DNA of 41,177 bases. It comes from a virus (lineage: Duplodnaviria; Heunggongvirae; Uroviricota; Caudoviricetes). A program made the translations under genes and the position numbers. Numbering within the stretch: position 1 is the stretch's first letter; each line of letters starts with the position of its first letter. A model generated the notes under the pieces. That model was not told the origin of the DNA. It saw nothing but the letters and a program-made list of their open reading frames with translations, and ran no database searches. Below, piece after piece: positions 2,830-22,250 of the stretch. The stretch covers positions 1 through 41,177 of the IMG/VR virus record IMGVR_UViG_2534681997_000004. One strand, written 5' to 3'.

Positions 2830-2834
2830 TCCCC

Positions 2835-5969: not shown

Positions 5970-5980
5970 AACTCACTCCG

Positions 5981-6331: not shown

Positions 6332-6439
6332 ACCTACTGCGCGTTAATATCACCACCTCATTCCGGTTTTCGTATGCCCCGGACGGCTACTTCGTGGGCT
6401 CCATGCCTGGGTGGTTCGTGGTGCGTCTTGGTGAGTTAG

Positions 6440-6469
6440 ATTAAATCACTGGTTTATATACATGTCAAC
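6440..6469 (-). promoter_or_regulatory. Putative leftward early promoter (PL-like) with overlapping operator motif
   Basis: On minus strand TTGACA (6469..6464), 17-nt spacer, TTTAAT (6445..6440); spacer contains TAAATC-ac-TGGTTTAT, a motif that recurs in the repressor/cro intergenic region. Confidence 0.35.
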
Positions 6470-6542
6470 TTAAGGTTAGTGTTAATTGTAAATCTGAGGT
6501 TTATGTGGCTGGGTTTTGTGACACGTCTGCAGAATCGCAGGC

Positions 6543-6569
6543 AAAAAAAATCCCGACGCGTGGTCGGGA
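6543..6569 (-). terminator. Intrinsic terminator ending the repressor-side operon
   Basis: Stem TCCCGAC / GTCGGGA with 5-nt loop; read on the minus strand it is followed by an 8-nt U run. Confidence 0.6.
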
Positions 6570-6642
6570 TGAGAAGGTTCGGGGAAGGCGACAGAGTTAG
6601 TAGCTGAGAGCCTTATAACTCAGGCGTATTGACCAAATCTGA

Positions 6643-7164
6643 CTAAAAGAAGTGCATAAAAGCTTTGTACAGCCCTGTACCAATGGCGATAATCGCAGGG
6701 ACACCTAAGAGAATCGCCAATTTAGCATCAGAGATTTTCTTGTCCACTGTGTCTGATGAGGGCTTTTTGTCTACAGACTCTTTGATACTAGACAGCCTCT
6801 CCAAAACTACAGCCATATTTTTGTCCAGTGAATTCACTGTCGTATCAACTTTTGAAACTGTGTTTTTTATCTCGGCAACATCTTTCTTGATGTGGGCAAC
6901 TTCAACCTCAAGAATAGCCAATCTCTTTTCCATGTCGTCACCTCCATCTTCAGTTGACGTATGAATGATTTCAGTATCATCCATAGCAACTGATGTGACA
7001 ATCCGTTTTTGTTTATCCGAAGCGGCAAAACTACAAGCACCCATAAGGAAGGTTGCTTGGCTCGAAGCTACTGATGAAAACTCTAAGCCTACTGTAGCTC
7101 CGCTATGGTCTGAATATGCAATCAATAACTTCCCTTCACCAAGAGATGATTGAGCCGCATCCAT
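6643..7164 (-). CDS. Hypothetical coiled-coil protein with C-terminal transmembrane helix (candidate exclusion/abortive-infection effector)
   Basis: ATG at 7164 lies 3 nt after the upstream stop (coupled); AT-rich codon usage; heptad-like stretch EKRLAILEVEVAHIKKDVAEIKNTV and C-terminal AKLAILLGVPAIIAIGTGLYKAFMHFF. Confidence 0.55.
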   Translation of the reverse strand: MDAAQSSLGEGKLLIAYSDHSGATVGLEFSSVASSQATFLMGACSFAASDKQKRIVTSVAMDDTEIIHTSTEDGGDDMEKRLAILEVEVAHIKKDVAEIKNTVSKVDTTVNSLDKNMAVVLERLSSIKESVDKKPSSDTVDKKISDAKLAILLGVPAIIAIGTGLYKAFMHFF

Positions 7165-7170
7165 CAATTA

Positions 7171-7452
7171 TTATTCCTCAAACATACTTTTTAAGGATTG
7201 ATAAAAATCATAAGCCTTTTGTTTGCTTAAAGTCACAGACACAACTTTGGTTCGCTGCATGCCCTTGACGACTATATCCGCATTATCCGTACCGATGATC
7301 GGGCTGCTATTCAGGAACACAAAATTGTAAACTTCGTAACCGGCATTTTGTGTGCCGATTGTTACGACACCGTCAGCATTGGTCTCGATGAAATTTTTCG
7401 CTTCGATTACATCATTAAGATGCATAAGTTCGACGGTTGTTTCTTTAGACAC
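7171..7452 (-). CDS. Hypothetical small soluble protein (93 aa), first gene of immunity-region cassette
   Basis: GTG start at 7452 with GGAGGA RBS 5 nt upstream; AT-rich; co-oriented with and directly downstream of the repressor gene. Confidence 0.5.
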   Translation of the reverse strand: MSKETTVELMHLNDVIEAKNFIETNADGVVTIGTQNAGYEVYNFVFLNSSPIIGTDNADIVVKGMQRTKVVSVTLSKQKAYDFYQSLKSMFEE

Positions 7453-7516
7453 CGAATCCTCCAGAAGATATTAAATCTTGAAATATTTTTATTACATGGA
7501 ATTAGATACTACTGGT

Positions 7517-7906
7517 TTAGGTTTGCTCACCTTGCGATCGAATCCGACCCTTCATGTACTTCTCGTACAGCTCATCTAACTCTTTCAGGCGAAGCGCAAA
7601 AATGCGGAGCATGTTCTGCTGCTCTTCTTCCGGTAACTGGCGGTAGAGCTCGAGCAAACGCTGTTCGTCCGGTTTGAGACCGTCTTTCTCCCCAACGTCT
7701 TCACCGAGTAGCCAGGCGACAGAAATACCAACAGCGTCGGCTATGGCCAGTGCCGATTTCTTACTAATCACGCCTTTTTTGAACCAGCCGTTTACGGCCT
7801 GAGGGGTGACTCCAGCTATTCTTGCCATGTCTGCTTTGGTAACGCCGCGATCAGTGATCTCAGTAAGGCGCTCCACCAGAACGAGGTTGGGTTCTTCTTT
7901 TCTCAT
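7517..7906 (-). CDS. Phage repressor, short HTH (XRE/CI-like, RacR-like) without peptidase domain
   Basis: About 129 aa from ATG 7906; HTH region ADMARIAGVTPQAVNGWFKKGVISKKSALAIADAVGISVAWLL; divergent from a Cro-like gene. Confidence 0.7.
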   Translation of the reverse strand: MRKEEPNLVLVERLTEITDRGVTKADMARIAGVTPQAVNGWFKKGVISKKSALAIADAVGISVAWLLGEDVGEKDGLKPDEQRLLELYRQLPEEEQQNMLRIFALRLKELDELYEKYMKGRIRSQGEQT

Positions 7907-8008
7907 ATGGTCATTGTAAATATTTGGTTTATGCACGCAATAAATCCAAAGTTTGCATGAAGTATAAATCTGTGGTTTACTTCTGCTATCAATAAGCAGG
8001 AGAAGCAC
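7907..8008. promoter_or_regulatory. Divergent promoter/operator region (OR-like) between repressor and cro-like gene
   Basis: 102-bp AT-rich intergenic region with TGGTTTAT-N7-ATAAATCC (7925..7947) and ATAAATC-tg-TGGTTTAC (7964..7980) repeats. Confidence 0.5.
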
Positions 8009-8227
8009 ATGTCCGCACTCGATAAAGCAATTAAAGCCGCTGGCTCTGCCAGAAAGCTCAGCATCGCGCTTGGTGTGACGAGTATGTCTGTAAGTCATTG
8101 GAAGAATCGTGACCAAGGGATCGTCCCGCCAAGCTATATCTTCCCGATTTTCAAAATGACAGGCGTAACCCCCCACGAGCTGCGCCCTGATCTCTATCCA
8201 AATCCCACTGACGGATTACCAAAGTAG
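8009..8227 (+). CDS. Cro-like HTH regulator (YdaS-like)
   Basis: 72-aa ORF with AGGAGA RBS, divergent from repressor; HTH ARKLSIALGVTSMSVSHW. Confidence 0.6.
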   Translation: MSALDKAIKAAGSARKLSIALGVTSMSVSHWKNRDQGIVPPSYIFPIFKMTGVTPHELRPDLYPNPTDGLPK

Positions 8228-8238
8228 GAGCACTGACA

Positions 8239-8796
8239 ATGCAAACACTTTCTTTTCAACAGAATAACAGAGCGCCATCAGAGCACCTGAAATTCCAGTA
8301 TCAACACAGTGAGGCTGAAGGCCAGCCGGTCGATCACCGGGCTATCTGTTCTGCCGTCCGCGCCTGGGCGGCGGCAGAGGGCCGCGTGGCGGTCGCTCTG
8401 GCGATTAAAGAGGCTGCCGAACAGGCCGAGCTTGACAGCATTGACATGACCGGCAGCGCCGATGTGTGGAACGTGAAGCTGTTTCGCTGGCTGGACAACC
8501 ACGAGAAATCACCGGCCTACCGGGCGAACGTCGAGCAGCTGGCGCCGGTAATAATTTCGGTTCTGCCGCTGGCGTACCGGGATCGCGTGATTAAGCACGA
8601 CTGCTTTGCGGTTCGTGTCGCCAGGTCGGTGAAAGAAGACGCTGAGGCGATACAGGCTGTCGTCCTCAAAGCCCCCAGACACGAACGGATGAAGGAAATC
8701 AGCGAGAGCATCGTAGCCAAGCTCTACCTGGACGGACCTGATTCTGTGGCGCCCATTATGGCGATGGTTACAACGATGCTGGGTGGTGCGCTATGA
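8239..8796 (+). CDS. Putative CII-position regulator (YdaT-like)
   Basis: 185-aa ORF immediately after the cro-like gene with GGAG RBS; assignment by position and vague family resemblance. Confidence 0.4.
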   Translation: MQTLSFQQNNRAPSEHLKFQYQHSEAEGQPVDHRAICSAVRAWAAAEGRVAVALAIKEAAEQAELDSIDMTGSADVWNVKLFRWLDNHEKSPAYRANVEQLAPVIISVLPLAYRDRVIKHDCFAVRVARSVKEDAEAIQAVVLKAPRHERMKEISESIVAKLYLDGPDSVAPIMAMVTTMLGGAL

Positions 8797-8880
8797 CGGG
8801 CTCAGAAATGGCGAAAGCCGCGGTGCTCGAACACCAACGGCTTTCAGGTGCAAAAACTGTGCGTAATTGCGGAGAACAGT

Positions 8881-9792
8881 ATGTCAAATACCGCTGAAAT
8901 ATTCAAATTCCCCACACAGCAGGGGAAACAGGAGAGCAGCATGGCTGAACTGGAGAAAGGCTATTTGCGCCTGGCCAACCAGATTCAGGATGCCCTGTGT
9001 ATCGTCGAACTATCCGGGCGCGAGTTCCGGGTGCTGAATGCTATCGTTCGTCTGACCTATGGCTGGTCTAAGAGTTCTGACCGCATCGCCAATAGCCTCA
9101 TTGCAGATAAAACGACGCTGAAGGTGAAACACGTCTCTGAAGCCGTGTTGAGCCTTGCCTATCGGAACATCATCATCCTGCGCCGCATTGGGCAAACCAG
9201 ATACATAGGGATTAATACCAGCCTGGATAAATGGGCGTATACCAAGCCAAATTGCATGAAGTGTCCAGCGGTGTTTCCTGCTGCTGAAGTTGTCACATGG
9301 GTTATTACCATCCCTGAATTCAGGGATAGCAATTTTACCCCTTCAATCATCCCTGAAAACGGGGATAACCATCCCCAAAAACAGGGAGAGGTATCCCTGA
9401 AAACAGGGAACACCAAAGACATTCTTCCAAATACAAATATAAATACAGATCTAACCCCCTCTAATCCCCCAAAGGGGAAGGGTAAGTTTGACCCGCTGAC
9501 GATTCCCGTTCCTGAGTGGCTTGATTCTGTGTCCTGGAGTGAGTGGGTGGCCTACCGCCAACAGTCTGGCAAAGCCATCAAGACCGAAATGACGGTCACC
9601 AAAGCATTCAAGTTGCTCAAGGCTTGCCTGGACGCTGGGCATGACCCCGTTGATGTGATCAACACCAGTATCGCCAACGGGTACCAGGGACTGTTTAAAC
9701 CGAAGTTCGCTCTCAACGCTCGCAAAACGGGCAGGGATGTGAACCGCATTTCTGAGCCAGACAAAACAATCCCACCCGGATTCAGGGGGTAA
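8881..9792 (+). CDS. Replication initiation protein, lambda O N-terminal domain-like
   Basis: N-terminus (LRLANQIQDALCIVELSGREFRVLNAIVRLTYGWSKSSDRIANSLIADKTTLKVKHVSEA) resembles the phage O N-terminal DNA-binding domain; ATG 8881 with GGAG RBS (alternative ATG at 8848). Confidence 0.6.
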   Translation: MSNTAEIFKFPTQQGKQESSMAELEKGYLRLANQIQDALCIVELSGREFRVLNAIVRLTYGWSKSSDRIANSLIADKTTLKVKHVSEAVLSLAYRNIIILRRIGQTRYIGINTSLDKWAYTKPNCMKCPAVFPAAEVVTWVITIPEFRDSNFTPSIIPENGDNHPQKQGEVSLKTGNTKDILPNTNINTDLTPSNPPKGKGKFDPLTIPVPEWLDSVSWSEWVAYRQQSGKAIKTEMTVTKAFKLLKACLDAGHDPVDVINTSIANGYQGLFKPKFALNARKTGRDVNRISEPDKTIPPGFRG

Positions 9793-9794
9793 GC

Positions 9795-10133
9795 ATGCCA
9801 AGACCAAATACACCAGAAGAGCAGGCGGCACTTATCCGGGTGATCATCGAAGAGGTGAAAATCCGTGGACGCTTAACCGTTAGCGAGGCATCACAGATGT
9901 TGTCGCTGCATCGTCAGACTGCTGAGAAGTATTTCCGCGTAGCAGCCGAACGCGGCGAACTCATTCGTTACGGTCGTCTAGGTTTGTTCAGGGACCCAAA
10001 GGCTGTAATTGATTTCGATCTCCAACGATTCTCATACGGTTCGAGTAAGCCTCTGATTGAGTTACCAGCAGATTTTCGGGGAAGTGCGGTTATGCGTCGG
10101 GTTATAGATATCGTGGGGAGGATGCCAGCATGA
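9795..10133 (+). CDS. Hypothetical HTH-containing protein
   Basis: 112-aa ORF with AGGGGG RBS; HTH-like LTVSEASQMLSLHRQTAEKY. Confidence 0.4.
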   Translation: MPRPNTPEEQAALIRVIIEEVKIRGRLTVSEASQMLSLHRQTAEKYFRVAAERGELIRYGRLGLFRDPKAVIDFDLQRFSYGSSKPLIELPADFRGSAVMRRVIDIVGRMPA

Positions 10134-10324
10134 CAACCGAAAAACTGGCGTTGAATTATGACCCAGCCGATCCCGACAAGATGCGATTACCGGCTGGCAT
10201 AACATGTGGTAATTGCCACCATATCCATCGTTGTAAAGCAATTTTTGGACACACGGAGTCGAACACATATTGCGATTGGTCACCGTCGCGATTTACTGCT
10301 GGCATTGGCGTGAAGGGGGATTGA
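10130..10324 (+). CDS. Hypothetical small Cys-rich protein
   Basis: 64 aa, ATGA overlap with upstream gene; CGNCHH...C...C pattern. Confidence 0.4.
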   Translation: MTTEKLALNYDPADPDKMRLPAGITCGNCHHIHRCKAIFGHTESNTYCDWSPSRFTAGIGVKGD

Positions 10325-10325
10325 G

Positions 10326-10532
10326 ATGATTGCTGCAAACTACATAGTCAATCTCTACTGCGACTGCGATGAGTGCACCGGTAAGCAATGGGGAAGCCCA
10401 GATTTTGCCGAGTACATTGGAAATTCATGGTCTGGCTGCGCTAAAGAGGCGCGGCCACATGGCTGGCGTATCAGCAAGGATAGAACGCGAGCGTTCGCGC
10501 CAGGTCACAAGATTTCGAGGACTAACCCATGA
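10326..10532 (+). CDS. Hypothetical small Cys-rich protein
   Basis: 68 aa starting 2 nt after the upstream stop; YCDCDEC motif. Confidence 0.35.
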   Translation: MIAANYIVNLYCDCDECTGKQWGSPDFAEYIGNSWSGCAKEARPHGWRISKDRTRAFAPGHKISRTNP

Positions 10533-10900
10533 CAACTATTACCAAAAAGCAACGCGCAGAGCTACGCATGAAGTTTGGCGGTCGCTGTGCTTATTGTGGA
10601 TGCGAACTACCAGAGAAAGGCTGGCATGCTGACCATGTAAAACCGGTCATTCGTTTTGATGGAAATATGCTTCACCAGGAACGTGACGATATATCAAACA
10701 TGGTTCCAGCATGCCACCCATGCAATCTGCACAAGCATTGCAGTAGCCTGGAAGATTACCGGCGAATTATCGGTGATGGTCGTCGTGAATTCCTTGTGTC
10801 CGGGAAAGGCAAAGCGCTGGTTCGTATGGGATTGGTTGAAATGAAATCTGACCCAGTGGTGTTCTGGTTCGAAAAATATCAAGAAGGAGCGTCAGCATGA
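10529..10900 (+). CDS. HNH endonuclease
   Basis: CAYCG...HADHVKP...N...PACHPCNLHK matches the HNH Cys/His/Asn signature; overlapping start/stop with neighbours. Confidence 0.7.
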   Translation: MTTITKKQRAELRMKFGGRCAYCGCELPEKGWHADHVKPVIRFDGNMLHQERDDISNMVPACHPCNLHKHCSSLEDYRRIIGDGRREFLVSGKGKALVRMGLVEMKSDPVVFWFEKYQEGASA

Positions 10901-11376
10901 CAACTAACAACCACCCGGCGCACGGTCCTGTATCACTCGATCGCCTGCACCAGATACGTGAAATACTCAGCAAAGCAGCAGCACAAAGCGACGGCGGTAA
11001 TGTCGGCTATGCGATGGCTGATGCTGTGAAGGTGATCAATGGAGTTCTGGAGTCGATGGCCCGTGAGCAAGTACGCCGTGAGCATGCTACATGGTCACAG
11101 GCTACTTTCGGCGATGTCGGTCCAGTTGGTCCTCTGAAGCACCTTTCTAAAGAAGCGCTCGAGGCTGCTGCTGAACCTGGCGACCTTAGCGAATGGGCTG
11201 ACATGCAATTCCTGTTATGGGATACGCAGCGTCGTGCCGGTATCAGTGATGAACAGATTACCCAAGCGATGGTAGAGAAGTTGGCGATTAACAAACAGCG
11301 CAAATGGCCTGAGCCGAAAGACGGTGAGCCATGTGTACATGACAGAATGAATCATGAGCGTATTGATTTTAGCTGA
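10897..11376 (+). CDS. Hypothetical protein, possibly nucleotide pyrophosphohydrolase-like (MazG/DUF550-like)
   Basis: 159 aa, translationally coupled to the HNH gene; family assignment from memory only. Confidence 0.35.
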   Translation: MTTNNHPAHGPVSLDRLHQIREILSKAAAQSDGGNVGYAMADAVKVINGVLESMAREQVRREHATWSQATFGDVGPVGPLKHLSKEALEAAAEPGDLSEWADMQFLLWDTQRRAGISDEQITQAMVEKLAINKQRKWPEPKDGEPCVHDRMNHERIDFS

Positions 11377-11504
11377 CTCACCGTAGCAACAATGAATAAT
11401 GTTTCGAGTGTATTTGATTATGCATTGTGAGATGGACATTACTGAGAGTGTAAATCTTAGTTTATGATAATGGACAGCAATGAAATTATACCCGGAGAGC
11501 GATA

Positions 11505-11972
11505 ATGGATACTAAGAATGAAGTTGTGCAACATTCATCACCCCAGCAGGCAGTGAGAGTATTTGCCGAGGCCCTTGAACAAGCCGTTAGGGAGAACACT
11601 ATAGAAGATTCGAACTCTCGGTCGCCTGGAAAAACTGTGCTTGATTCAAATTCAGAAATAAAATCTTCAACAATTGTCGGTGCTGGTGGATTGATCGGAA
11701 CTGCTGGCGTTGCAGCCACTACAGCTTCGGCCGTTACTGGTGGGTCAGCTGCTACTATAATGTCTGCAACAGCTGGAACAGTTGGAGCCAGTGTTGCATC
11801 TTTAGCAGGCGCAGCAGGAACGGCAGGGGCTGCGTCGATCTCATCCGGAATGGCAGCCGTTGGTTCGGTTGTTGGAGGAGGAATGGCCGCCGGGGCAATA
11901 ATCACAGCGGTGGCACCTGTCGCAGCAGTCGCAAGTGTTGCTTACTTGGCTTTTAAGCTTTTTGAAGATTAA
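11505..11972 (+). CDS. Gly/Ala-rich hydrophobic (glycine-zipper-like) membrane protein
   Basis: GGAGAG RBS 6 nt before ATG; C-terminal about 100 aa is almost entirely G/A/S/T/V with GxxxG/AxxxA spacing. Confidence 0.55.
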   Translation: MDTKNEVVQHSSPQQAVRVFAEALEQAVRENTIEDSNSRSPGKTVLDSNSEIKSSTIVGAGGLIGTAGVAATTASAVTGGSAATIMSATAGTVGASVASLAGAAGTAGAASISSGMAAVGSVVGGGMAAGAIITAVAPVAAVASVAYLAFKLFED

Positions 11973-12175
11973 CTAACCTTTCATAAAGGCTGTTTAAGCA
12001 GGCTAATTTTCATATCTTAGTAAAGTTTCTGCTGGTTCATAATTAGCAGATACAAAACAGAATCCCGCGATTTCACGGCGGAGCCAGCGATGTTTGCTGA
12101 AGCACTGGTGCGTGCAAATTTGCCAGAGCTTTGTCAGCAGAAACAAATAGCGGCTTAATAAAACATTGCTAATTC

Positions 12176-12203
12176 AACCCGCTACGGCGGGTTTTCTTTT
12201 TTT
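12176..12203 (+). terminator. Intrinsic terminator
   Basis: CCCGC-tacg-GCGGG stem-loop followed by TTTTCTTTTTTT. Confidence 0.6.
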
Positions 12204-12265
12204 ACTACTGACAGAAAATTAACAATTTGTGCTCTTAAAACGTTGATCATTTCCGTGCATAGGTA

Positions 12266-12285
12266 TACTGTATAAAAACACAGTA
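12266..12285 (+). promoter_or_regulatory. LexA (SOS) box
   Basis: TACTGTATAAAAACACAGTA = CTGT-N8-ACAG palindrome, 18 nt upstream of the dinI-like start. Confidence 0.7.
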
Positions 12286-12303
12286 CATGCAATGGAGGCC
12301 ATT

Positions 12304-12537
12304 ATGAAAGTTGAATTAACCATTGATCGCATGAAAGAACTTCCTAAAGGCGCGGTACCAGCACTGGAGAAAGAATTGCTTAAGTGCCTGAATGATCACT
12401 ATGACAATTGCAGGCTCACAATCCGCCGTGCCGGGTCCGATGGGTTAAGTGTTTTCGGTGGAGACAAGGACGATAAAAAGAAAATCGAATCCATCCTCCA
12501 GGAAACCTGGGAAAGCGCTGACGACTGGTTTTATTAG
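12304..12537 (+). CDS. dinI: DinI-family DNA-damage-inducible protein
   Basis: GGAGG RBS; C-terminus ...KKKIESILQETWESADDWFY matches the DinI signature. Confidence 0.8.
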   Translation: MKVELTIDRMKELPKGAVPALEKELLKCLNDHYDNCRLTIRRAGSDGLSVFGGDKDDKKKIESILQETWESADDWFY

Positions 12538-12654
12538 AATTGCGCTTAAGGCTGGCGCGCATTTATCAGAATACCGCAATTTGCGTAACCCTCTGATGCT
12601 GCTGCCGACAATCTTTAATCGCGTCTGTTAGTCGCTCGAAGGGAGAACATAAAT

Positions 12655-12903
12655 GTGAGTGATTCAGCTTTGCAAACGTCAGATGACAACTGGTATGACA
12701 TTGTAAGAAGGTCTGACGGCTGCGTGGTGTTTAGCTTTCCTTCATCGGGCAGGCATCTAATTTATCGCGTCAATGGCATGGTTTCTATGCGGCCTTTGCT
12801 GGATGATGAAGAGGTCTTTACTCCTAATGGTTTTATGCAGTTTATTCACCGTCTCGGCTACCGGGTAACCCCACCTTCTGATAATATGAAATCAACGGTC
12901 TGA
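12655..12903 (+). CDS. Hypothetical protein
   Basis: 82 aa, GTG start with AAGGGAG RBS. Confidence 0.4.
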   Translation: MSDSALQTSDDNWYDIVRRSDGCVVFSFPSSGRHLIYRVNGMVSMRPLLDDEEVFTPNGFMQFIHRLGYRVTPPSDNMKSTV

Positions 12904-12937
12904 ACAACCGTAACCTACTGCGCCACGGAGAGAAACC

Positions 12938-13537
12938 ATGGCGCACGAACTACAACTCATCAAGCAGTCATCAGGAATCCTGATCCCCGCGACGCCGGAG
13001 ACCAGCGATATTCTGCAATCAAAAATCAAACTCGGCGCCGTGCTGGTAGCCGAATTTCGCCAGGTGAGGAATCCCGCATTCCATCGCCGTTTTTTTGCGC
13101 TCCTGAATCTCGGGTTTGAATACTGGGAACCTACTGGAGGGGCGATATCCAGCAATGAGCGTAAGCTCGTAAATGGTTATGCTAAATTCCTCGCGGCATT
13201 TGGTGGAAACGAAGGCGCACTGCTGGATGCTGCCGAGCAATATCTGGACCGCATCGCCGATAAGCGCGCCGGTAGCATCAGCATCTGCAAATCCTATGAT
13301 GCTTATCGCGCCTGGGTGATCGTCGAGTCTGGTCACTATGACGCTATTCAGCTTCCTGACGGAACACTTCGCAAACATCCCCGCAGTATTGCCTTCGCTA
13401 ACATGGACGAAACCGAGTTCCAGCAGCTGTACAAAGCCGCGCTCGATGTTCTGTGGCGATGGATACTCTCCCGATCATTTCGCAGTTGTGAAGAGGCAGA
13501 AAACGCCGCCGCCCAGCTGATGAGCTTTGCGGGGTGA
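12938..13537 (+). CDS. Nin-region protein, YbcN-like (DUF1367-like)
   Basis: 199 aa with GGAGAG RBS; position upstream of ybcO-like and rusA as in DLP12-type nin regions. Confidence 0.4.
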   Translation: MAHELQLIKQSSGILIPATPETSDILQSKIKLGAVLVAEFRQVRNPAFHRRFFALLNLGFEYWEPTGGAISSNERKLVNGYAKFLAAFGGNEGALLDAAEQYLDRIADKRAGSISICKSYDAYRAWVIVESGHYDAIQLPDGTLRKHPRSIAFANMDETEFQQLYKAALDVLWRWILSRSFRSCEEAENAAAQLMSFAG

Positions 13538-13743
13538 TGGCGATGAAATTTTCCTGGTTCCACCATCACGAATGCACCACCGAACAGGCCGACGAGCTGG
13601 TGGAGAAATACCGGGCGCGCGGTGTAAAGACAGAGCGCAGCCTGAATCGCGACAACATCACCTGGACCGTCAGCGCGCAATTGCCGGAAGGCGACAACGC
13701 GCCTCGCCCGAGCCGGGTATGGCAAAGCAAGGCGTGGGGGTGA
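13537..13743 (+). CDS. Hypothetical small protein
   Basis: 68 aa; TGATG stop/start overlap with upstream gene. Confidence 0.35.
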   Translation: MAMKFSWFHHHECTTEQADELVEKYRARGVKTERSLNRDNITWTVSAQLPEGDNAPRPSRVWQSKAWG

Positions 13744-13745
13744 GC

Positions 13746-14036
13746 ATGGCAAATTTACGCAAAGAGGCTCGTGGTCGTGATTGTCAGGTTCGAATTCCCG
13801 GCGTCTGCAACGGTAACCCGGAAACGTCTGTACTGGCGCACATTCGCCTGGCCGGGTTATGTGGCACCGGAATCAAACCGCCTGATCTGATTGCCACCAT
13901 TGCATGCTCTGCCTGTCACGACGAGATCGACCGCCGTACACATTTTGTCGATGCTGAGTATGCTAAAGAATGCGCGCTGGAAGGTATGGCGAGAACGCAG
14001 GTTATCTGGCTGAAAGAGGGGGTAATCAAGGCGTGA
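13746..14036 (+). CDS. YbcO-like small nuclease (DUF1364-like)
   Basis: [35 protein letters not shown]...[15 protein letters not shown]; located immediately upstream of rusA as in DLP12. Confidence 0.6.
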
Positions 14037-14395
14037 ATACTTACAACATCACATTGCCCTGGCCGCCGAGCAATAACCGCTACTACCGCCATAATCGCGG
14101 GCGCACGCACATCAGCGCAGAAGGGCAGGCATACCGCGATAACGTCGCCCGAATCATTAAAAACGCAATGCTGGATATCGGTCTGGCTATGCCTGTGAAA
14201 ATCCGCATTGAGTGCCACATGCCGGATCGCCGTCGCCGTGACCTGGATAATCTGCAAAAGGCCGCTTTTGACGCACTCACCAAAGCAGGTTTCTGGCTGG
14301 ACGATGCTCAGGTCGTTGATTATCGCGTTGTGAAGATGCCCGTTACCAAAGGTGGAAAGCTGGAACTGACAATCACCGGGCTGGAGGCCGTATGA
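14033..14395 (+). CDS. rusA: RusA Holliday junction resolvase
   Basis: 120 aa from GTG 14033; [95 protein letters not shown] closely matches RusA. Confidence 0.85.
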
Positions 14396-14529
14396 CATTT
14401 GAATCCTGTTTTTCCGATCACCTCCGCGTTCGCTGGCAGCGGCTTCGCTTATACCACTTTCCCGGCTCTGTGCTAACGGATTACCGAATACTGAAGAACT
14501 ACATCAAAACCATAGGCGGTGCAGTATGA
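14392..14529 (+). CDS. Small ORF (45 aa) coupled between rusA and the Q-like gene (YlcG-position)
   Basis: ATG overlaps the rusA stop (ATGA) and its stop overlaps the Q-like start (ATGA); not in ORF track because under 60 aa. Confidence 0.4.
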
Positions 14530-15215
14530 ATACTCAATTTCTCGAATACGTGCGCCAGCAGTTGATGGTGGCGACCGCAGACCTCAGCGGGGCGACGAAA
14601 GGGCAGCTGGTAGCTTTCGCCGAGAACGCGCAATTCACCGCGACGGCGCGGAGTCGGGGCCGGAAAAAGGTATTCGACAAGGATAAGCAGCGCATGGTCA
14701 ATCCTGACGGCCAGCCGATGAGCGGCAACCAGTCCCGCGCTAAGGGCTCGTCTATCGCGCTGGTGGGCCCGGTAGAGTACGGGACCGCATCGTGGCGCCG
14801 CGCTGTTCTGTCGCTTGAAGACCATCAGAAAGCGTGGCTGCTATGGAACTATAGCGAGAACGTGCGCTGGTGCTATCAGGTGGAAATCACTCAATGGGCG
14901 TGGGCAGAGTTCCGGGAGCAGCTCGGCGCGAAGAAGGTGGCCGGCAAAACGATGGAGCGCCTGAAGAAGCTTGTCTGGCTCGCGGCTCAGGACGTGAAAG
15001 CAGAGCTGGCAGGGCGTGAGACGTACGAATATCAGGCGCTGGCGTCGCTGGTTGGCGTAACGCCAAAAAACTGGTCAGAGACCTTTACTGACCGCTGGGT
15101 TGAGATGCGCAGCATCTTCCTGCGACTGGATAGCGGGGCTTTATTGCAGGTTACGCGATCACGTTCACAACAAAAGGCGACAAATTTAGACTCAAGTCTT
15201 GCAAAACTGGATTGA
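14526..15215 (+). CDS. Putative late-gene antiterminator (Q-like)
   Basis: 229-aa ORF between rusA and the lysis cassette, followed by a promoter-like element and intrinsic terminators; assignment mainly positional. Confidence 0.5.
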   Translation: MNTQFLEYVRQQLMVATADLSGATKGQLVAFAENAQFTATARSRGRKKVFDKDKQRMVNPDGQPMSGNQSRAKGSSIALVGPVEYGTASWRRAVLSLEDHQKAWLLWNYSENVRWCYQVEITQWAWAEFREQLGAKKVAGKTMERLKKLVWLAAQDVKAELAGRETYEYQALASLVGVTPKNWSETFTDRWVEMRSIFLRLDSGALLQVTRSRSQQKATNLDSSLAKLD

Positions 15216-15235
15216 AACGCATATATTTCATGTAA
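15207..15235 (+). promoter_or_regulatory. Putative late promoter (PR'-like)
   Basis: TTGCAA-17 nt-TATATT at the 3' end of the Q-like gene, upstream of tandem terminators and the holin gene. Confidence 0.35.
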
Positions 15236-15281
15236 ATCTGATATCGTCGCCATAGCTTCGTAGGTCGACAAAGAATTAAGA

Positions 15282-15311
15282 GCCTCGCCATCGTGCGGGG
15301 CTTTTTTATTT
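15282..15311 (+). terminator. Intrinsic terminator (tR'-like, first of tandem pair)
   Basis: 7-bp stem GCCTCGC/GCGGGGC with 6-nt loop followed by TTTTTTATTT. Confidence 0.55.
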
Positions 15312-15385
15312 GCGGTACGCAGCACACAGAACCCACTACCTGGGACCCTTCGGCCAGAGAGCCGACATTGCCTTACCCTCACATT

Positions 15386-15412
15386 GCCAGCCTGTCGCTG
15401 GCTTTTTTATTT
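15386..15412 (+). terminator. Intrinsic terminator (second of tandem pair)
   Basis: GCCAGC-ctgtc-GCTGGC stem-loop followed by TTTTTTATTT. Confidence 0.55.
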
Positions 15413-15484
15413 GCGATGTCCGGTCGTTGTTTCCTGGCATCCTTCCACTCTACACAAACAGCACCCCGTTCTTTCGGAGGTGAT

Positions 15485-17817: not shown

Positions 17818-18096
17818 ATGCTGACAATAATTCTGTTTGACGATGGGAAGCCTGGCTTGATTTGGCCTATCGAAGAAATTGGCAAAGTGGTAAAAGTCCC
17901 TGACTACCAGTTTAAGGCTCGAGAAATGCTCGGTGGTGTGGCGGTCATGCCTGATGTGGAGTATCAGGTCTATGAGTTCCAGATGGATGACGAGATTTAT
18001 CTTATTGGAGTAAATGGGGGCAGGCCAAGCGACGATGTAATTAAGTCTCACATCAAGCATGGCGACCCCAAGCCGGAACCATACAAAACACTGTAA
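17818..18096 (+). CDS. Hypothetical protein (AT-rich moron with own promoter and terminator)
   Basis: 92 aa with GGGGG RBS; extended -10 TGGTATAAT at 17782..17790 upstream; intrinsic terminator immediately downstream. Confidence 0.5.
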   Translation: MLTIILFDDGKPGLIWPIEEIGKVVKVPDYQFKAREMLGGVAVMPDVEYQVYEFQMDDEIYLIGVNGGRPSDDVIKSHIKHGDPKPEPYKTL

Positions 18097-18118
18097 CCGC
18101 CTCCGGGCGGTTTTTTAT
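18097..18118 (+). terminator. Intrinsic terminator
   Basis: CCGCC-tccg-GGCGG stem-loop followed by TTTTTT. Confidence 0.6.
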
Positions 18119-18172
18119 TGTCAACTTTATGAGCAAACTGATCTTAATTACTGTAACTAGGTGGTCAATGAT

Positions 18173-18811
18173 ATGGCAACGCTTAAGGACCTTTCCAGTC
18201 AGTTAAGACAGCTGCAGAAGCAAATACCGTTTGCGACTGCCCAGGCTATGACTAAAGTGGTTCGCCAGATAGAAGCGGCCCAAAAAACAGCATTTGAGCG
18301 GAATCTGGATAATCCAACACCTTTTACAGTTAAATCGGTTGGGTCAGTTGGTGCCAGGAAAAACAGCCTTCGTGCGAAGGTGTTTGTTCGTGATACTGCT
18401 GCTGGTTACCTTGAACCCTTCGAGTTCGGCGGAGAGCACAAGCTTAATGGTAGTGCTTTGCTTAACCCGAAAGACATAAAGCTTAATAAATACGGCAACC
18501 TGCCGCGTAATAAGCTCTCTCAGCTCAAAGCAAAGGAAAATGTATTCGTAGGTGAGGTGGATGGCGTTAACGCTGTCTGGCAGCGTAAGAAACCGATGAA
18601 AGCTAAGAAGCGACGGGCCAAGCGCTCCGCTAATGGGACGCGAAGACCGAAACGTAAACAGCGTTCTCCAAAGCTTTTGATCCGGTTTGGTGATGCGCTA
18701 CCTGTGACTCCAGTGCTGGGGTATATGGATAGGGCCCGTACCATGGCGAACGCACTGCTACCGTCTGCTTTAAATCAGGCGATAGCAGAAGCCATCAGGA
18801 CGGCAAAATAA
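18173..18811 (+). CDS. Hypothetical protein with Lys/Arg-rich segment
   Basis: 212 aa from ATG 18173 (AGGTGG RBS); basic stretch KKPMKAKKRRAKRSANGTRRPKRKQRSPK. Confidence 0.45.
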   Translation: MATLKDLSSQLRQLQKQIPFATAQAMTKVVRQIEAAQKTAFERNLDNPTPFTVKSVGSVGARKNSLRAKVFVRDTAAGYLEPFEFGGEHKLNGSALLNPKDIKLNKYGNLPRNKLSQLKAKENVFVGEVDGVNAVWQRKKPMKAKKRRAKRSANGTRRPKRKQRSPKLLIRFGDALPVTPVLGYMDRARTMANALLPSALNQAIAEAIRTAK

Positions 18812-18821
18812 AAGCAGTAAC

Positions 18822-19325
18822 TTATAAGTTAATTTCGCAAGCTTTTATGAAGCTGTTTACTGCAGTTGTCGATCCAGAAACATTGGCTGACATGGAATGC
18901 TGGTTTCCGCCATCCTTTGTTTGCACACCAACTAACACTTTGGATTTCGCCCCCTGAAGCTGCTTAAGCACTGTTTTTAGTTGGTCCGCGTCATCCGATT
19001 GAATCTGGAGGCTCTGAACATTACGTCTTGAAAGGGTAGCATCGAGCTTCACTGCGGTATTCCCGTCGACCTTCATTATCAGGTCCATTGGTACCTCTGA
19101 TAGTGATTCGGTGCTTTTATCCATTTCAACGTATGCCGCCGATAGCTTTTCTTTAGTGCAGTCAAACACAATGGCGCCATTGTCGGATGAAACCTCGCCA
19201 AGCATCATTGCTTTCTTACCACCAGAGAAAAGGTCATCTTCAGTATTAGTTACCCACTGGGCATGAGCAATTGGTGATGCCAGCACTGCGGCTACGAAAG
19301 TTATTTTGATTATATTGTTACCCAT
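18822..19325 (-). CDS. Secreted/periplasmic hypothetical protein (signal peptide), opposite-strand moron
   Basis: AAGGAG RBS 7 nt before ATG 19325; N-terminal signal MGNNIIKITFVAAVLASPIAHA-QW; AT-rich. Confidence 0.55.
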   Translation of the reverse strand: MGNNIIKITFVAAVLASPIAHAQWVTNTEDDLFSGGKKAMMLGEVSSDNGAIVFDCTKEKLSAAYVEMDKSTESLSEVPMDLIMKVDGNTAVKLDATLSRRNVQSLQIQSDDADQLKTVLKQLQGAKSKVLVGVQTKDGGNQHSMSANVSGSTTAVNSFIKACEINL

Positions 19326-19468
19326 TACATTCTCCTTGTATTGAATAGGAATAATCATAGTCGGAGCGAATGGTCGAAGCCATTAAAAAAATGGGTCCTT
19401 CCTGAGACTTTTGTAAGGTACGGGCATTGCGCGCCGCGGTGTTTTCCTAGCTACAACTTTCAGATTTG

Positions 19469-19618
19469 TGTCCCATGTCCCACCTCTGGCGATCATTACG
19501 GACACCTCGCCAGCTCTGGCTATTCCAGTTTATTCCAGTGGGACATTCTGGTGGGACATGGCAAAAATGTCCCAGGCGAATGTCCCACCCCAGAAAATGT
19601 CCCAGGTGATGTCCCATG
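19469..19618. repeat. Array of about 8 TGTCCCA repeats (6 direct, 2 inverted); candidate cosB-like terminase binding sites
   Basis: TGTCCCA at about 19469, 19476, 19569, 19581, 19599, 19611 and TGGGACA at about 19539 and 19551, ending at the Nu1-like start codon. Confidence 0.55.
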
Positions 19619-20185
19619 ACCACGATGAACCAGAGTCAGTACGCACAACATTCAGGTGTGGATCGCAAAACAATTGGTCGGTGGATTAAAGCCGGGCGCT
19701 TCATTGTGATGGACGGAGACCTGATTGACGTAGAGGCCAGCGATGCGGCATTGAAGAAAAACCGCGATGGCAAAGACCCGCGCGCCTCGAACGCGAAGAA
19801 AAAGAAAACTCCCGTCGTTAGCGATAACGATGATGACGGTGATGAAATCAATAAAACTGTCCGCCAGATAATGCTCACTGAAGGGGCAGATCTTTCGAGA
19901 GAGGAAGCGGGACGTATCCGCGAGAATTACATGGCCCTGCAGGCAAAGCTGCAGTATGAAAAAGACAGCGGCCAGCTTATTGAGCTGACAGCAGCCGAGG
20001 AGGTTTTATTCAACGCCTTTCGCCAACAGCGTGATGCCTGGCTTAACTGGCCGTCCAGGGTGGCGCCGCTAATGGCTGCTGATCTGGATGTACCGGCGGA
20101 CAGGATGACAGAGGTGCTGATTGAACATGTCCACAAACACATCTCAGTCCTCGGAGAGCCAGAGTTTAACCCGGCAGAAGATTGA
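19616..20185 (+). CDS. Terminase small subunit (Nu1-like)
   Basis: 189 aa; N-terminal HTH (QYAQHSGVDRKTIGRWIKAG); immediately upstream of and overlapping the large terminase gene. Confidence 0.6.
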   Translation: MTTMNQSQYAQHSGVDRKTIGRWIKAGRFIVMDGDLIDVEASDAALKKNRDGKDPRASNAKKKKTPVVSDNDDDGDEINKTVRQIMLTEGADLSREEAGRIRENYMALQAKLQYEKDSGQLIELTAAEEVLFNAFRQQRDAWLNWPSRVAPLMAADLDVPADRMTEVLIEHVHKHISVLGEPEFNPAED

Positions 20186-22250
20186 GCGTCTTGAATTAAG
20201 CGTCCGCAAAGGCTGGACACCCCCGCCGCGTATCAGTGTGCCGCAGTGGGCAGATGACTATCGTAAGCTGGCAAAAGAGGCTGGGAGCACTTCGGGAAAC
20301 TGGGAAACATCGACGGTAGAAATTGCCCGCGGACCGATGCTTGCCGCGACGGAGTCCGGGGTTCATATCATCACTGTAATGTGCTGTACCCAGTTGATGA
20401 AGACAGCACTGCTGGAAAACCTTTTTGGCTATTTTGCCCACCTCGATCCTTGTCCGATACTGCTGCTGCAGCCGAAAGAAGAAGCCGCTGAACAGTTTTC
20501 GAAAGAGCGTATTAGCCCGCTGGTAAGGGTGACGCCGGTACTGCGTAAAATCATCGGTGATTCGAAACAGAAAAGCTCGAAAGAAACCATTCTTTACAAG
20601 GCATTCACTGGCGGATTTCTGGCGCTGGCGGGTGCTGGTAGCCCTGATAACCTTGCGCGTCGTCCGATTCGTGTCCTGCTGGCGGATGAAGTGGACAAGT
20701 ACCCGATAACCCGCGAAGGCGATCCAATTGCGCTGGCCGAAGAGCGTACAGCGACATTTGGCCTGACCTGGCTGTCTGTACGCGCCTGTTCGCCGACGGT
20801 GGAGGATGAGAGCCGCATTGCTGACAGCTACGCCGACTCCGATCAGCGCCGGGCATCTGTGGTTTGCCCGCACTGTGGCCACCGCCAGTTCCCCGACTTT
20901 TTCAAACACGTTCAGTGGCCGAAAGAGGGAGATAAACACCTGACTAAATCGGCGATGCTCTATTGCGAATGCTGTGGTAGTGGCTGGTCCGAAGGACAGC
21001 GCCTCAGAGCTCTGCACACTATTCGATGGCATCAGACGCGCCCATTTGAGTGCTGCGGGGAGCGGCACTCACCGCTGATGGATTATGACCTTGCCTGGCG
21101 GGCGGCAGACGAGGGCAGCGTTGAAAAGGTCTGGCAATGGTCAGAGTCGGAACGGCATGCGGTCTATCGCGCAATCTGCCCCTCCTGTGGAAAGGAGGCA
21201 GTCGATAACCACCACGCGGGGTACCAGGCATCCAAGCTTTTCAGCCCCTGGCAAAAAGATAAGCCGTCGGATATTGCGAAAAAATATATCGATGCGAAGG
21301 GCGATCCGGATAAGGAACAGGCGTGGTGGAATACCCAGATGGGGCTTCCGCACCGACCTAATCATGGGAAACAGCTCCCTGTTGATGTTCTGCTGGCGCG
21401 CCGGGAAATATTTCCGGCCGTCGTTCCGGACGGGGTGGCATTGTTAACAGCTGGAGTTGATACCCAGGACGATCGCTTCGAAATTACGATCACCGGCTGG
21501 GGGAGAGATGAAGAATCGTGGTCGGTCGCGCATGACGTTATTTATGGTGACCTTGAGACGGAAGAACCCTGGAAGCGACTGGATGCATACCTGAAACAGA
21601 TCTGGCGACGTGGTGACGGGCGCGGCCTGAATATCATGGCAACGTGCATGGACTCCGGTGGCCACCATACGCAGAAGGTATACGAATTCGCCAAAGAGCG
21701 TCTTGGCCGTCGTGTCTGGGCAATTAAGGGGGAGTCTGCACAGGGAGGTAAACGCAATCCTGTCTGGCCGACCAAACGACCATCATCGAAAAGCAAAGCC
21801 AGTTTCCGCCCTGTCATTCTGGGGGTTAACTCAGCGAAAGACGTGATACGCGGTCGCCTGCATCTTGAGCCACCCAAACCTGGCGCCGCCGCTGCGGGTT
21901 ATATGCATTTTCCTGACGATCGCGATCTCGGGTACTTCAATCAGCTGCTGGCGGAGCGACTGGTTTACAAAGTCATTTCCGGGCAGCGGTACAGTATCTG
22001 GGAAGCAATACCAGGACGAGCTAACGAAGCGCTTGACTGCCTCGTTTACAGCTATGCCGCGCTGTGCGGTCTCAAACATATGGGGTTAAAACTCAACGTC
22101 CGGGCCGCCAACCTCGAAGCCGATCCGGATAAGTTCCTGCCAGCGCCAGTTGGACAGGAAGAAAAAATCAATTACGAGCTGCCGGGTGCGGTTATTGAAG
22201 AACCAGCGCCGGTCAAACGTAAGCGAATATCGCAACTCCTGCCGAAATAA
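20127..22250 (+). CDS. Terminase large subunit (lambda GpA family)
   Basis: About 707 aa; ATPase region (ITVMCCTQLMKTALLENL ... VLLADEVDKYP) and C-terminal nuclease region typical of GpA-type terminases; TTG at 20121 alternative start. Confidence 0.85.
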   Translation: MSTNTSQSSESQSLTRQKIERLELSVRKGWTPPPRISVPQWADDYRKLAKEAGSTSGNWETSTVEIARGPMLAATESGVHIITVMCCTQLMKTALLENLFGYFAHLDPCPILLLQPKEEAAEQFSKERISPLVRVTPVLRKIIGDSKQKSSKETILYKAFTGGFLALAGAGSPDNLARRPIRVLLADEVDKYPITREGDPIALAEERTATFGLTWLSVRACSPTVEDESRIADSYADSDQRRASVVCPHCGHRQFPDFFKHVQWPKEGDKHLTKSAMLYCECCGSGWSEGQRLRALHTIRWHQTRPFECCGERHSPLMDYDLAWRAADEGSVEKVWQWSESERHAVYRAICPSCGKEAVDNHHAGYQASKLFSPWQKDKPSDIAKKYIDAKGDPDKEQAWWNTQMGLPHRPNHGKQLPVDVLLARREIFPAVVPDGVALLTAGVDTQDDRFEITITGWGRDEESWSVAHDVIYGDLETEEPWKRLDAYLKQIWRRGDGRGLNIMATCMDSGGHHTQKVYEFAKERLGRRVWAIKGESAQGGKRNPVWPTKRPSSKSKASFRPVILGVNSAKDVIRGRLHLEPPKPGAAAAGYMHFPDDRDLGYFNQLLAERLVYKVISGQRYSIWEAIPGRANEALDCLVYSYAALCGLKHMGLKLNVRAANLEADPDKFLPAPVGQEEKINYELPGAVIEEPAPVKRKRISQLLPK

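What the first reader, a model, noticed from the sequence alone, without database searches (positions are those of the whole stretch)
18822..19325. Opposite-strand secreted protein immediately before the cos region (bor-like position)
Seen in sequence: a minus-strand ORF with a strong AAGGAG RBS encodes a 167-aa protein with a typical N-terminal signal peptide (cleavage predicted after AHA), in AT-rich DNA, transcribed against the late operon. Established knowledge: lambda carries the lysogenic-conversion gene bor on the opposite strand in this same location. Inference: a lysogen-expressed periplasmic or outer-membrane factor, possibly fitness- or virulence-related.
Basis: partly seen in the sequence, partly recalled or inferred. 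Interest (0 to 1): 0.5.

Follow-up and report, generated by a model that had tools for sequence, protein, structure and literature searches.

The report
Secreted phage moron protein beside cos
A real, conserved prophage gene sitting 98 bp from the phage's DNA-packaging cut site encodes a small protein exported to the bacterial periplasm; it is an optional add-on ("moron") of unknown function, related in fold but not sequence to the Bartonella invasion protein IalB, and not related to lambda Bor.

Summary
A minus-strand ORF at 18822-19325 has an AAGGAG RBS 6 nt before the ATG. It encodes 167 aa with a classical Sec signal peptide, cut after AHA22. It is the last gene before cos, which I place at 19424-19435.

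It is a real gene. dN/dS is 0.07-0.13, it matches PHROG 19473 over its full length, and 269 clusters at 50% identity are related.

It is a classic moron:
- It is a ~580-bp cassette of lower GC.
- It is absent from E. coli prophages with a 93-98% identical backbone and from phage phiNP.
- Homologues sit in at least five other phage positions and in some non-phage chromosomal sites.

So it is "bor-like" by position only. It is most likely a soluble periplasmic accessory protein. My favoured but untested role is envelope-level protection or exclusion of incoming phage. Expression in the lysogen and any virulence role remain untested. This is an ordinary kind of element with an uncharacterised protein.

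The parts
18822..19325 (-). CDS of the 167-aa secreted protein (stop TAA at 18822-18824); identical to RefSeq WP_001472855.1
   Evidence: Full-length PHROG 19473 match. dN/dS 0.07-0.13.
19260..19325 (-). Codons 1-22, the Sec-type signal peptide (MGNNIIKITFVAAVLASPIAHA); predicted signal peptidase I cut before Q23
   Evidence: This rests on heuristics and family conservation; no SignalP run was possible.
19332..19337 (-). Shine-Dalgarno AAGGAG, 6 nt upstream of the ATG
   Evidence: AAGG(A/G)G is conserved in all 13 diverged upstream regions aligned.
19354..19383 (-). Putative weak promoter: -35-like ATGGCT (19378-19383), 18-nt spacer, -10 TATGAT (19354-19359). A T7 tract (19385-19391) lies just upstream. 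Inferred, not shown.
   Evidence: It fails the strict consensus scan. TAT-AT is conserved in all aligned homologous upstream regions. The homologous Salmonella site scores 9/12, and ACTATGATTATT is also kept upstream of the chromosomal Leminorella copy.
18812..19391 (.). The moron cassette (~580 bp): 10-bp spacer after the stop of the neighbouring gene, the CDS, and 66 bp of upstream DNA. Boundaries are approximate to within a few bases.
   Evidence: It is absent from E. coli prophages whose flanks are 93-98% identical; identity resumes at 19392. It is also absent from Citrobacter phage phiNP.
19392..19423 (+). Conserved backbone block TGGGTCCTTCCTGAGACTTTTGTAAGGTACGG. It is the last 32 bases of the virion right end and is in a cosQ-like position.
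19424..19435 (+). cosN cohesive-end sequence GCATTGCGCGCC, assigned by identity to the experimentally supported 12-nt 5' overhang of Serratia phage vB_SspM_BZS1
   Evidence: PMC7556043
19475..19615 (.). Cluster of seven GGGACAT/ATGTCCC repeats between cos and the small-terminase start; a cosB-like candidate for small-terminase binding sites
   Evidence: All 7 occurrences in the 41-kb window lie here. Repeats and inverted repeats were found. The repeat changes to GTTACC in loci whose TerS is only 52-64% identical.
18161..18811 (+). Convergent neighbour (216 aa; PGAP start 18173). It matches PHROG 1924, labelled 'minor tail protein'. Its stop is 10 bp from the stop of the secreted-protein gene.
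   Evidence: It is adjacent to the secreted-protein gene in every cos-adjacent locus. Its homologues are the last or first gene at the ends of several linear phage genomes.
19616..20185 (+). Small terminase subunit (PHROG 57), the first gene of the packaging and head operon

Best explanation
The gene is the cargo of a ~580-bp moron cassette. The cassette sits in the variable slot between the last late-region gene and cos of a temperate phage with a lambda-type packaging and head module and a Mu-type contractile tail.

Proposed mechanism, step by step:
1. The gene is read leftwards, against the late operon. Transcription probably starts from a weak promoter inside the cassette (inferred).
2. 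It is translated from a strong RBS (sequence shown).
3. The precursor is exported by Sec and cut after Ala22 (inferred from sequence and family-wide conservation).
4. This gives a 145-aa, acidic (computed on residues 24-167: 15.4 kDa, pI 4.9), soluble periplasmic protein. Its two invariant cysteines (C56, C163) probably form a DsbA-made disulfide (inferred).
5. The mature protein is a beta-sandwich with two helices of the IalB / MotY-N type. That fold is so far seen in periplasmic proteins that act by binding other envelope components.

The gene is dispensable for the phage, so it must pay its way as an accessory function in the envelope of the carrier cell. I commit to it binding an envelope or periplasmic target. 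My favoured specific role, at about 0.3, is blocking a periplasmic step of infection by other phages. This would resemble P1 Sim or T4 Spackle. I favour this over a Bor-like surface function.
For: Real, selected gene:
- dN/dS 0.07-0.13.
- 33 close and 269 distant homologue clusters, almost all about 165 aa.

Export:
- Signal-peptide features occur in 119-121 of 121 relatives, with no lipobox.
- W24, C56 and C163 are invariant or nearly so.
- Residues 1-20 are disordered in the model and the rest is confident, with mean pLDDT 86.

Fold:
- IalB-domain proteins are described as periplasmic or secreted (PMC7327166; PMC6299047).

Moron behaviour:
- E. coli prophages (ES8 and the mussel isolate) with near-identical backbones lack the cassette, as does phiNP.
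- Serratia phage BZS1 has two other small ORFs in the same slot.
- ORF GC is 44.6% against 51.9% for the window.
- Homologues lie after com/mom at the right end of Mu-like prophages.
- Others flank the tape-measure gene, lie between Rz and an HNH/P27-type terminase, or lie near CI and HicAB.
- Others are at chromosomal sites with no phage-family gene annotated nearby.

Fast divergence:
- Its dN is 5-6 times that of TerL in the same pairs. This fits a protein engaged with variable partners.
Against: - No direct evidence of transcription in a lysogen. The strict promoter scan finds nothing upstream, and no terminator follows the gene.
- The function is not indicated by any annotated homologue. 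All named relatives are 'hypothetical'.
- There is no hit to PADLOC defence models or to any known exclusion protein.
- In several phages the homologue is co-oriented with, and tightly packed into, the tail operon. This suggests late lytic expression there.
- Overall selection is purifying, with no arms-race signal.
- The structural similarity to IalB is at fold level only.
Confidence: 0.55

Rival explanations
1. Bor-like lysogenic-conversion factor. The protein reaches the cell surface or the medium and changes interaction with an animal host, for example serum resistance, adhesion or invasion as reported for IalB.
For: - It has the same kind of position and orientation as lambda bor (lambda map from established knowledge).
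- Its best structural match is IalB, which promotes erythrocyte invasion by Bartonella through an unknown mechanism.
Against: - No lipobox or membrane anchor, and no Bor or Ail/Lom Pfam hit.
- The model is a soluble domain.
- The IalB Pfam model is not matched.
- Carriers are mostly commensal or environmental strains and genera.
- IalB-domain proteins also serve housekeeping periplasmic roles, such as RgsG.
Confidence: 0.1
2. A helper of the phage's own lytic cycle that acts in the periplasm late in infection. It might tune lysis, protect against lysis from without, or prevent progeny from wasting DNA on lysing cells.
For: - Homologues in four phage groups lie inside the tail operon in the late orientation, with 30-90-bp gaps.
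- In L059 the homologue lies directly after the lysis cassette.
Against: - In the window, and in about 45 related loci, the gene is antisense to the late transcript.
- Near-identical prophages lack it.
- Copies also occur at chromosomal sites with no phage-family gene annotated nearby.
Confidence: 0.15
3. A general periplasmic protein that binds a ligand or another protein. It benefits host physiology independently of phage or animal hosts, for example in envelope stress or small-molecule binding, and is merely carried about by phages.
For: - Distant relatives sit at chromosomal loci, for example next to DUF2501 and fimbrial genes, in Leminorella, and in an alphaproteobacterium.
Against: - Among the relatives whose context could be examined, most lie in phage or prophage DNA.
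Confidence: 0.15
4. A chance or decaying ORF with no function.
For: No promoter or terminator was found by the consensus scan.
Against: - dN/dS 0.07-0.13 with saturated dS.
- The full-length family extends across orders of bacteria.
- The structure prediction is confident.
Confidence: 0.02

Closest known systems
PHROG 19473 (phage protein family, function unknown)
   Same: The match is full length, 1-167 of 167, E 1.6e-99. Distant relatives also hit only this family.
   Different: Nothing differs; this is the family. It carries no annotation. No member was found by tblastn in 50,697 deposited phage genomes, so known copies are in prophages and metagenomic viral contigs.
Lambda Bor (lipoprotein, lysogenic-conversion gene on the opposite strand between Rz and cos)
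   Same: It shares the position class and orientation. It is a small exported protein, and the gene is an optional extra.
   Different: There is no sequence similarity. Bor is a lipoprotein anchored in the outer membrane (established knowledge), whereas this protein has no Cys at +1 and looks soluble. This gene lies 98 bp from cos, whereas bor lies well over 1 kb from it (lambda map from memory).
Bartonella IalB (PDB 3DTD; Pfam PF06776)
   Different: Sequence identity is only 13%. The query does not match PF06776. One of 51 relatives matches at E 0.002, which is below significance. Family profiles do not find 3DTD among PDB sequences. The molecular function of IalB is itself unknown.
N-terminal domain of a Vibrio flagellar T-ring protein (8z5n_A, probably MotY)
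   Different: This protein has no OmpA-like C-terminal domain, shows no sequence similarity and has no flagellar context. I did not verify the identity of the chain.
Periplasmic superinfection-exclusion proteins: P1 Sim and T4 Spackle (from my own knowledge)
   Same: This is what the protein may work like: a small, signal-peptide-bearing, soluble periplasmic protein of a myovirus. These proteins are dispensable for growth.
   Different: No sequence similarity to anything in the phage collection, which should hold P1 and T4, and no PADLOC hit. The function was not tested here.
HK97 gp15 moron (exclusion protein encoded next to the tape-measure gene; from my own knowledge)
   Same: Homologues in L074 and L075 sit immediately before the tape-measure gene, and in L015 and L071 immediately after it. 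The architecture is that of a moron.
   Different: gp15 is an inner-membrane protein, whereas this one has only a cleavable signal peptide. There is no homology.

Membership tests
PHROG 19473 | Full-length match to the family HMM | tested here: met
   E 1.6e-99, residues 1-167 on profile positions 1-167.
Moron (optional phage cargo gene) | Present in some phages and absent from close relatives with the same flanks | tested here: met
   E. coli ES8 and the mussel isolate have 93-98% identical flanks and no cassette. phiNP lacks it. BZS1 has other ORFs in the slot.
Moron (optional phage cargo gene) | Base composition differs from the surrounding genome | tested here: met
   ORF GC 44.6% against 51.9% for the window, and 52-57% for the 500-bp windows covering the terminase genes. 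The difference is modest.
Moron (optional phage cargo gene) | Own promoter | tested here: inconclusive
   No site passes the 9/12 scan. ATGGCT-18-TATGAT (8/12) is conserved, and the homologous Salmonella site scores 9/12. By eye, the Mu-like copy has TTGCTT-17-TATAAA, which the scan does not list. No expression data are available.
Moron (optional phage cargo gene) | Own terminator | tested here: not met
   No terminator-like site lies in the 10 bp between the two convergent stop codons. The nearest minus-strand sites are inside the neighbouring gene, at 18506-18492 and 18112-18095.
Moron (optional phage cargo gene) | The same gene occurs at unrelated positions in unrelated phages | tested here: met
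   It lies after mom in Mu-like prophages, before or after the tape-measure gene, after Rz next to an HNH/P27 terminase, and in the immunity region.
Sec / signal peptidase I substrates | Basic n-region, hydrophobic h-region, small residues at -3 and -1 | tested here: met
   K7, ITFVAAVLASPI and A-H-A. The pattern is family-wide: 121/121 h-region, 119/121 basic n-region and 102/121 Ala at -1. SignalP itself was not available, and export has not been shown experimentally.
Bacterial lipoproteins (as Bor) | Lipobox with Cys at +1 | tested here: not met
   0 of 121 relatives have Cys after the predicted cut, and the query has Q23.
Lambda Bor / Iss family | Sequence homology to Bor | tested here: not met
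   No Bor-family hit in Pfam at E <= 0.1. tblastn against 50,697 phage records found nothing.
Lambda Bor / Iss family | Opposite-strand gene between the lysis genes and cos | tested here: met
   Lysis cassette at about 15.5-16.8 kb, gene at 18822-19325 (-), cos at 19424-19435.
IalB family (PF06776) | Match to the Pfam model above its gathering score | tested here: not met
   The query has no hit. One of 51 relatives hits at E 0.002, and none of 30 distant relatives hits.
IalB family (PF06776) | Same three-dimensional fold as 3DTD | tested here: met
IalB family (PF06776) | Promotes host-cell invasion | not testable with these tools
   This needs infection assays.
Known anti-phage defence / exclusion proteins | Match to a PADLOC model or to an annotated exclusion PHROG | tested here: not met
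   PADLOC gave only a chance-level hit at E 0.007 to a type I specificity subunit. The only PHROG hit is the unannotated 19473.

The most novel reading that the evidence does not exclude
The family (PHROG 19473 plus about 270 diverged clusters) could be a new class of soluble periplasmic phage-exclusion or envelope-modulating proteins. It is built on the IalB / MotY-N fold and is spread as a moron among temperate phages, mostly those with contractile tails. That would give the first molecular handle on what the IalB fold does: binding a conserved periplasmic or envelope target.
Probability: 0.2. Interest if true: 0.6.

Novelty: new member of a known kind. Interest (0 to 1): 0.3.

Why it matters
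Morons are the main route by which temperate phages change the phenotype of their hosts. This one is a clean natural example:
- The cassette boundaries are defined.
- Natural cassette-plus and cassette-minus prophages exist.
- The cos site is mapped 98 bp away.

That makes it easy to test. If the protein proves to exclude other phages or to alter the envelope, it would annotate a family of several hundred 'hypothetical' periplasmic proteins. It would also hint at the long-unknown activity of the IalB fold. If not, it remains one more uncharacterised accessory gene.

Tried and rejected
1. Homology to Bor or any deposited phage protein. tblastn of the protein, and of a 183-aa paralogue, against 50,697 phage records gave nothing.
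2. Pfam, NCBIfam, PADLOC and PDB sequence searches gave only chance-level hits: DUF7767 E 0.03, SigF, a type I S subunit and FabH.
3. Sequence link to IalB. Profiles of 121 and of 30 relatives searched against PDB sequences did not find 3DTD. Pfam scans of 51 and 30 relatives gave one marginal PF06776 hit. I keep the IalB relation as fold-level only.
4. Foldseek against the PDB gave no significant match; the top hits, TEAD and fibre heads, are noise. BFVD gave weak matches to uncharacterised proteins of T4-like phages KP15 and RB16. The AFDB libraries were not available.
5. I first thought the conserved block upstream of the gene (CGCGGCGCGCAATGCCCGT...GGACCCATTTTTTT) might be a terminator or part of the gene's own control region. 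It does not fold (z 0.24). It is present without the gene in phiNP, ES8 and BZS1, and it contains the BZS1 cohesive end. It is therefore the cos site.
6. Sigma-54 and other alternative promoter motifs were checked by eye and rejected.
7. Wider searches for genomic context were limited. The alignments were too diverse for the search for related loci. The genome scan returned only 4 loci. The last two word-indexed protein searches added little.
8. I assumed the whole window equalled the MLI104K1 prophage. This is wrong. Only 15444-38737 matches, at 99.5%. The tRNA and DUF2441 genes of that prophage are not in the window.
9. Literature searches for the accession numbers, the PHROG id and IalB-domain function found nothing that assigns a mechanism.

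Full report
**1. The observation**

The minus strand carries an ORF from 19325 down to 18822, 167 aa with stop TAA.
- AAGGAG lies at 19332-19337, 6 nt from the ATG.
- A longer in-frame start at 19358 (178 aa) has no RBS. It is not kept in diverged homologues.
- RefSeq's pipeline calls the same 167-aa product, WP_001472855.1, in E. coli MLI104K1. That chromosome is 100% identical over window 18000-20200. It is 99.5% identical over 15444-38737, but unrelated in the early region.
- The ORF has 44.6% GC against 51.9% for the window.
- Both neighbours are on the + strand. They are a 216-aa gene ending at 18811, 10 bp from the stop of our gene, and the small terminase gene starting at 19616.

**2. 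It is a real gene**

- Thirty-three close homologue clusters exist in Enterobacterales.
- An exhaustive profile search finds 269 clusters at 50% identity, nearly all 160-175 aa.
- Against orthologues in the same genomic position, dN/dS is 0.07-0.13 wherever dS is not saturated.
- The protein matches PHROG 19473 (function unknown) end to end, E 1.6e-99.
- Nothing else matches: Pfam, NCBIfam, PADLOC and PDB sequences give only chance-level hits.

**3. It is exported and soluble**

- The N-terminus is MGNNIIK / ITFVAAVLASPI / AHA | QW.
- In an alignment of 121 relatives the sequence of this segment varies but its character does not. All have a hydrophobic core, 119 have a basic n-region, 102 have Ala at -1, and most have a small residue at -3. 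Trp two residues after the cut is invariant.
- No member has Cys at +1, so this is not a lipoprotein.
- C56 and C163 are invariant or nearly so. A disulfide is the natural reading for a periplasmic protein, but I could not measure the distance in the model.
- The AlphaFold2 model has mean pLDDT 86 and pTM 0.79. Residues 1-20 are disordered. The rest forms nine strands and two helices, with no further hydrophobic segment.

**4. Where exactly it sits**

- The linear genome of Serratia phage vB_SspM_BZS1 starts with GCATTGCGCGCC. This is annotated cosL and supported by PhageTerm and by sequencing across the prophage junction (PMC7556043).
- That genome ends with ...AAAAAAATGGGTCCTTCCCTGCACTTTTGTAAAGCACGG.
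- The window reads AAAAAAATGGGTCCTTCCTGAGACTTTTGTAAGGTACGG | GCATTGCGCGCC at 19385-19435.
- So cos is at 19424-19435. The gene is the last one at the right end of the virion DNA, and its start codon is 98 bp from the cut.
- Between cos and the terminase gene lie all seven GGGACAT copies found in the window. In related loci whose small terminase is only 52-64% identical, these are replaced by GTTACC repeats. This is what one expects of terminase-binding sites.
- The packaging and head genes are lambda-type: GpA terminase, gpW, portal, S49 protease, decoration protein and capsid E. The tail is Mu-type.

**5. It is a moron**

- E. coli strains ES8 and a mussel isolate carry the same backbone (93-98% identity). 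There the 216-aa gene is followed directly by a small hairpin and the cos block. About 560-580 bp are missing, and identity with the window resumes at 19392.
- Citrobacter phage phiNP has the same arrangement without the gene.
- BZS1 has two unrelated small ORFs in the slot.
- In about 45 viral contigs, and in Salmonella and Klebsiella prophages, the gene occupies the same slot in the same opposite orientation.

Homologues also occur in other places:
- After com/mom and before the right end of Mu-like prophages inserted at four different chromosomal or prophage sites.
- Immediately after or before the tape-measure gene in the late orientation.
- Between Rz and an HNH/P27-type terminase module.
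- Beside a CI-like repressor and a probable toxin-antitoxin pair, read from its sequence as HicAB-like.
- At chromosomal sites with no phage-family gene annotated nearby.

One pair (L049) has identical terminase genes but only 81% identity in this protein. This places a recombination joint at cos.

**6. Expression**

- The strict sigma-70 scan finds no promoter in the 290-bp upstream region and no terminator after the gene.
- In 13 diverged upstream regions a TAT-AT hexamer (TATGAT at 19354-19359) is conserved, with ATGGCT 18 nt upstream and a T-tract before that.
- The homologous Salmonella site reaches 9/12. The motif ACTATGATTATT also precedes the chromosomal Leminorella copy.
- By eye, the Mu-like copy has TTGCTT-17-TATAAA upstream. 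The scan does not list it, because it requires T at the last position of the second hexamer.
- I therefore infer a weak own promoter. Expression in the lysogen is not shown.

**7. What the protein is like**

- Foldseek finds nothing significant in the PDB. It finds only uncharacterised proteins among viral models.
- Sequence profiles do not connect the family with IalB.
- IalB is a signal-peptide-bearing protein that promotes erythrocyte invasion by an unknown mechanism. Its location is disputed (PMC6299047).
- An IalB-domain protein, RgsG, is an essential periplasmic polar-growth factor in Sinorhizobium (PMC7327166).
- The shared theme is a periplasmic binding module, not a known activity.

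**8. Interpretation**

The steps I regard as well supported:
- It is a real gene.
- It is an optional cassette.
- It lies next to cos.
- It encodes a Sec-exported, soluble, probably disulfide-bonded periplasmic protein with an IalB-like fold.

The steps that are inferred:
- It has its own promoter and is expressed in the lysogen.
- It acts by binding an envelope component.
- The specific pay-off.

I favour protection against incoming phage at the periplasmic step, for four reasons:
- The gene is dispensable.
- It is carried mainly by temperate phages. The four carrier groups whose tail genes could be seen (the window type, Mu-like prophages, L015/L071 and L074/L075) all have contractile tails.
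- It repeatedly sits next to tape-measure genes.
- It diverges 5-6 times faster than the terminase.

Soluble periplasmic exclusion proteins are a known kind, for example P1 Sim and T4 Spackle (my own knowledge). None of this is a test.

A Bor-like surface or virulence role is less likely. There is no lipid anchor, no homology, and no association with pathogenic lineages. A role in the phage's own lytic cycle, or a general host-physiology role, cannot be excluded.

**9. Verdict**

- The 'bor-like' label is right for position and wrong for the molecule.
- This is a new, uncharacterised member of a familiar class of element. It has moderate to low interest, and would gain interest only if the family turns out to define a function for the IalB fold.

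Noticed in passing
window 19392-19435 and 19475-19615: The cos site can be placed by identity to the 12-nt cohesive end of Serratia phage BZS1. All seven GGGACAT copies in the window cluster between cos and the small-terminase start. In related loci with a diverged small terminase the repeat is GTTACC instead. This suggests that the terminase and its binding sites have co-evolved.
   Followed up: partly
L059:7870-7990 (IMG/VR contig 3300011573_000024): A phage with a different packaging module (HNH endonuclease, P27-type small terminase, 581-aa large terminase) carries a 67%-identical copy of the gene. It also carries most of the same cos-flank block (GCGCGCAACGCCCGTGCCTTACAAGAGGTCCAGGAAGGACCCATTTTTT), located upstream of the HNH gene. 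Either that phage uses a similar cos, or the block was dragged along with the cassette. This is unexplained.
   Followed up: no
window 18161-18811 (+): The 216-aa neighbour matches PHROG 1924, labelled 'minor tail protein'. However, it sits far from the tail genes. In linear genomes of Rhodobacter, Dinoroseobacter, Serratia, Yersinia and Ralstonia phages it is the last or first gene next to the genome end. It has a very basic C-terminal stretch (KKRRAKRSANGTRRPKRKQRSPK) and no Pfam or PDB match. The label may be wrong.
   Followed up: partly
window 18095-18112: A GC-rich hairpin (AACCGCC-TCCG-GGCGGTT) with T-runs on both strands sits just upstream of the 216-aa gene. It is a likely bidirectional terminator. 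It coincides with a mosaic breakpoint: several E. coli prophages match the window only from 18095 rightwards and carry a DUF2513 gene to its left instead.
   Followed up: no
window 1-15443 versus L001: The early half of the window is unrelated to the MLI104K1 prophage, which is 99.5% identical from 15444 to 38737. That prophage has tRNA-Asn and tRNA-Thr genes, a partial Q gene and an opposite-strand DUF2441 gene between Q and the holin. The window lacks all of these and has no tRNA genes. This is a second variable moron slot in the phage lineage.
   Followed up: partly
L075:7398-8857 (IMG/VR contig 2706794629_000004): Here the homologue is flanked by two more small ORFs with signal-peptide-like N-termini (163 aa and 122 aa), directly before the tape-measure gene. 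This forms a small cluster of secreted cargo genes.
   Followed up: no
proteins P0178, P0181, P0152, P0170, P0065, P0066: Some distant relatives contain two or three tandem copies of the domain (331-655 aa). Others have a C-terminal extension of 130-230 residues with no Pfam match. One (P0097) is fused to, or miscalled with, a phage capsid E domain.
   Followed up: no
L079, L080, L081, L084-L086: Two distant chromosomal relatives (P0212, P0213) are each convergent with a DUF2501 gene (a family I recall as periplasmic) next to a chaperone-usher fimbrial operon. This synteny recurs across several metagenomic contigs.
   Followed up: no
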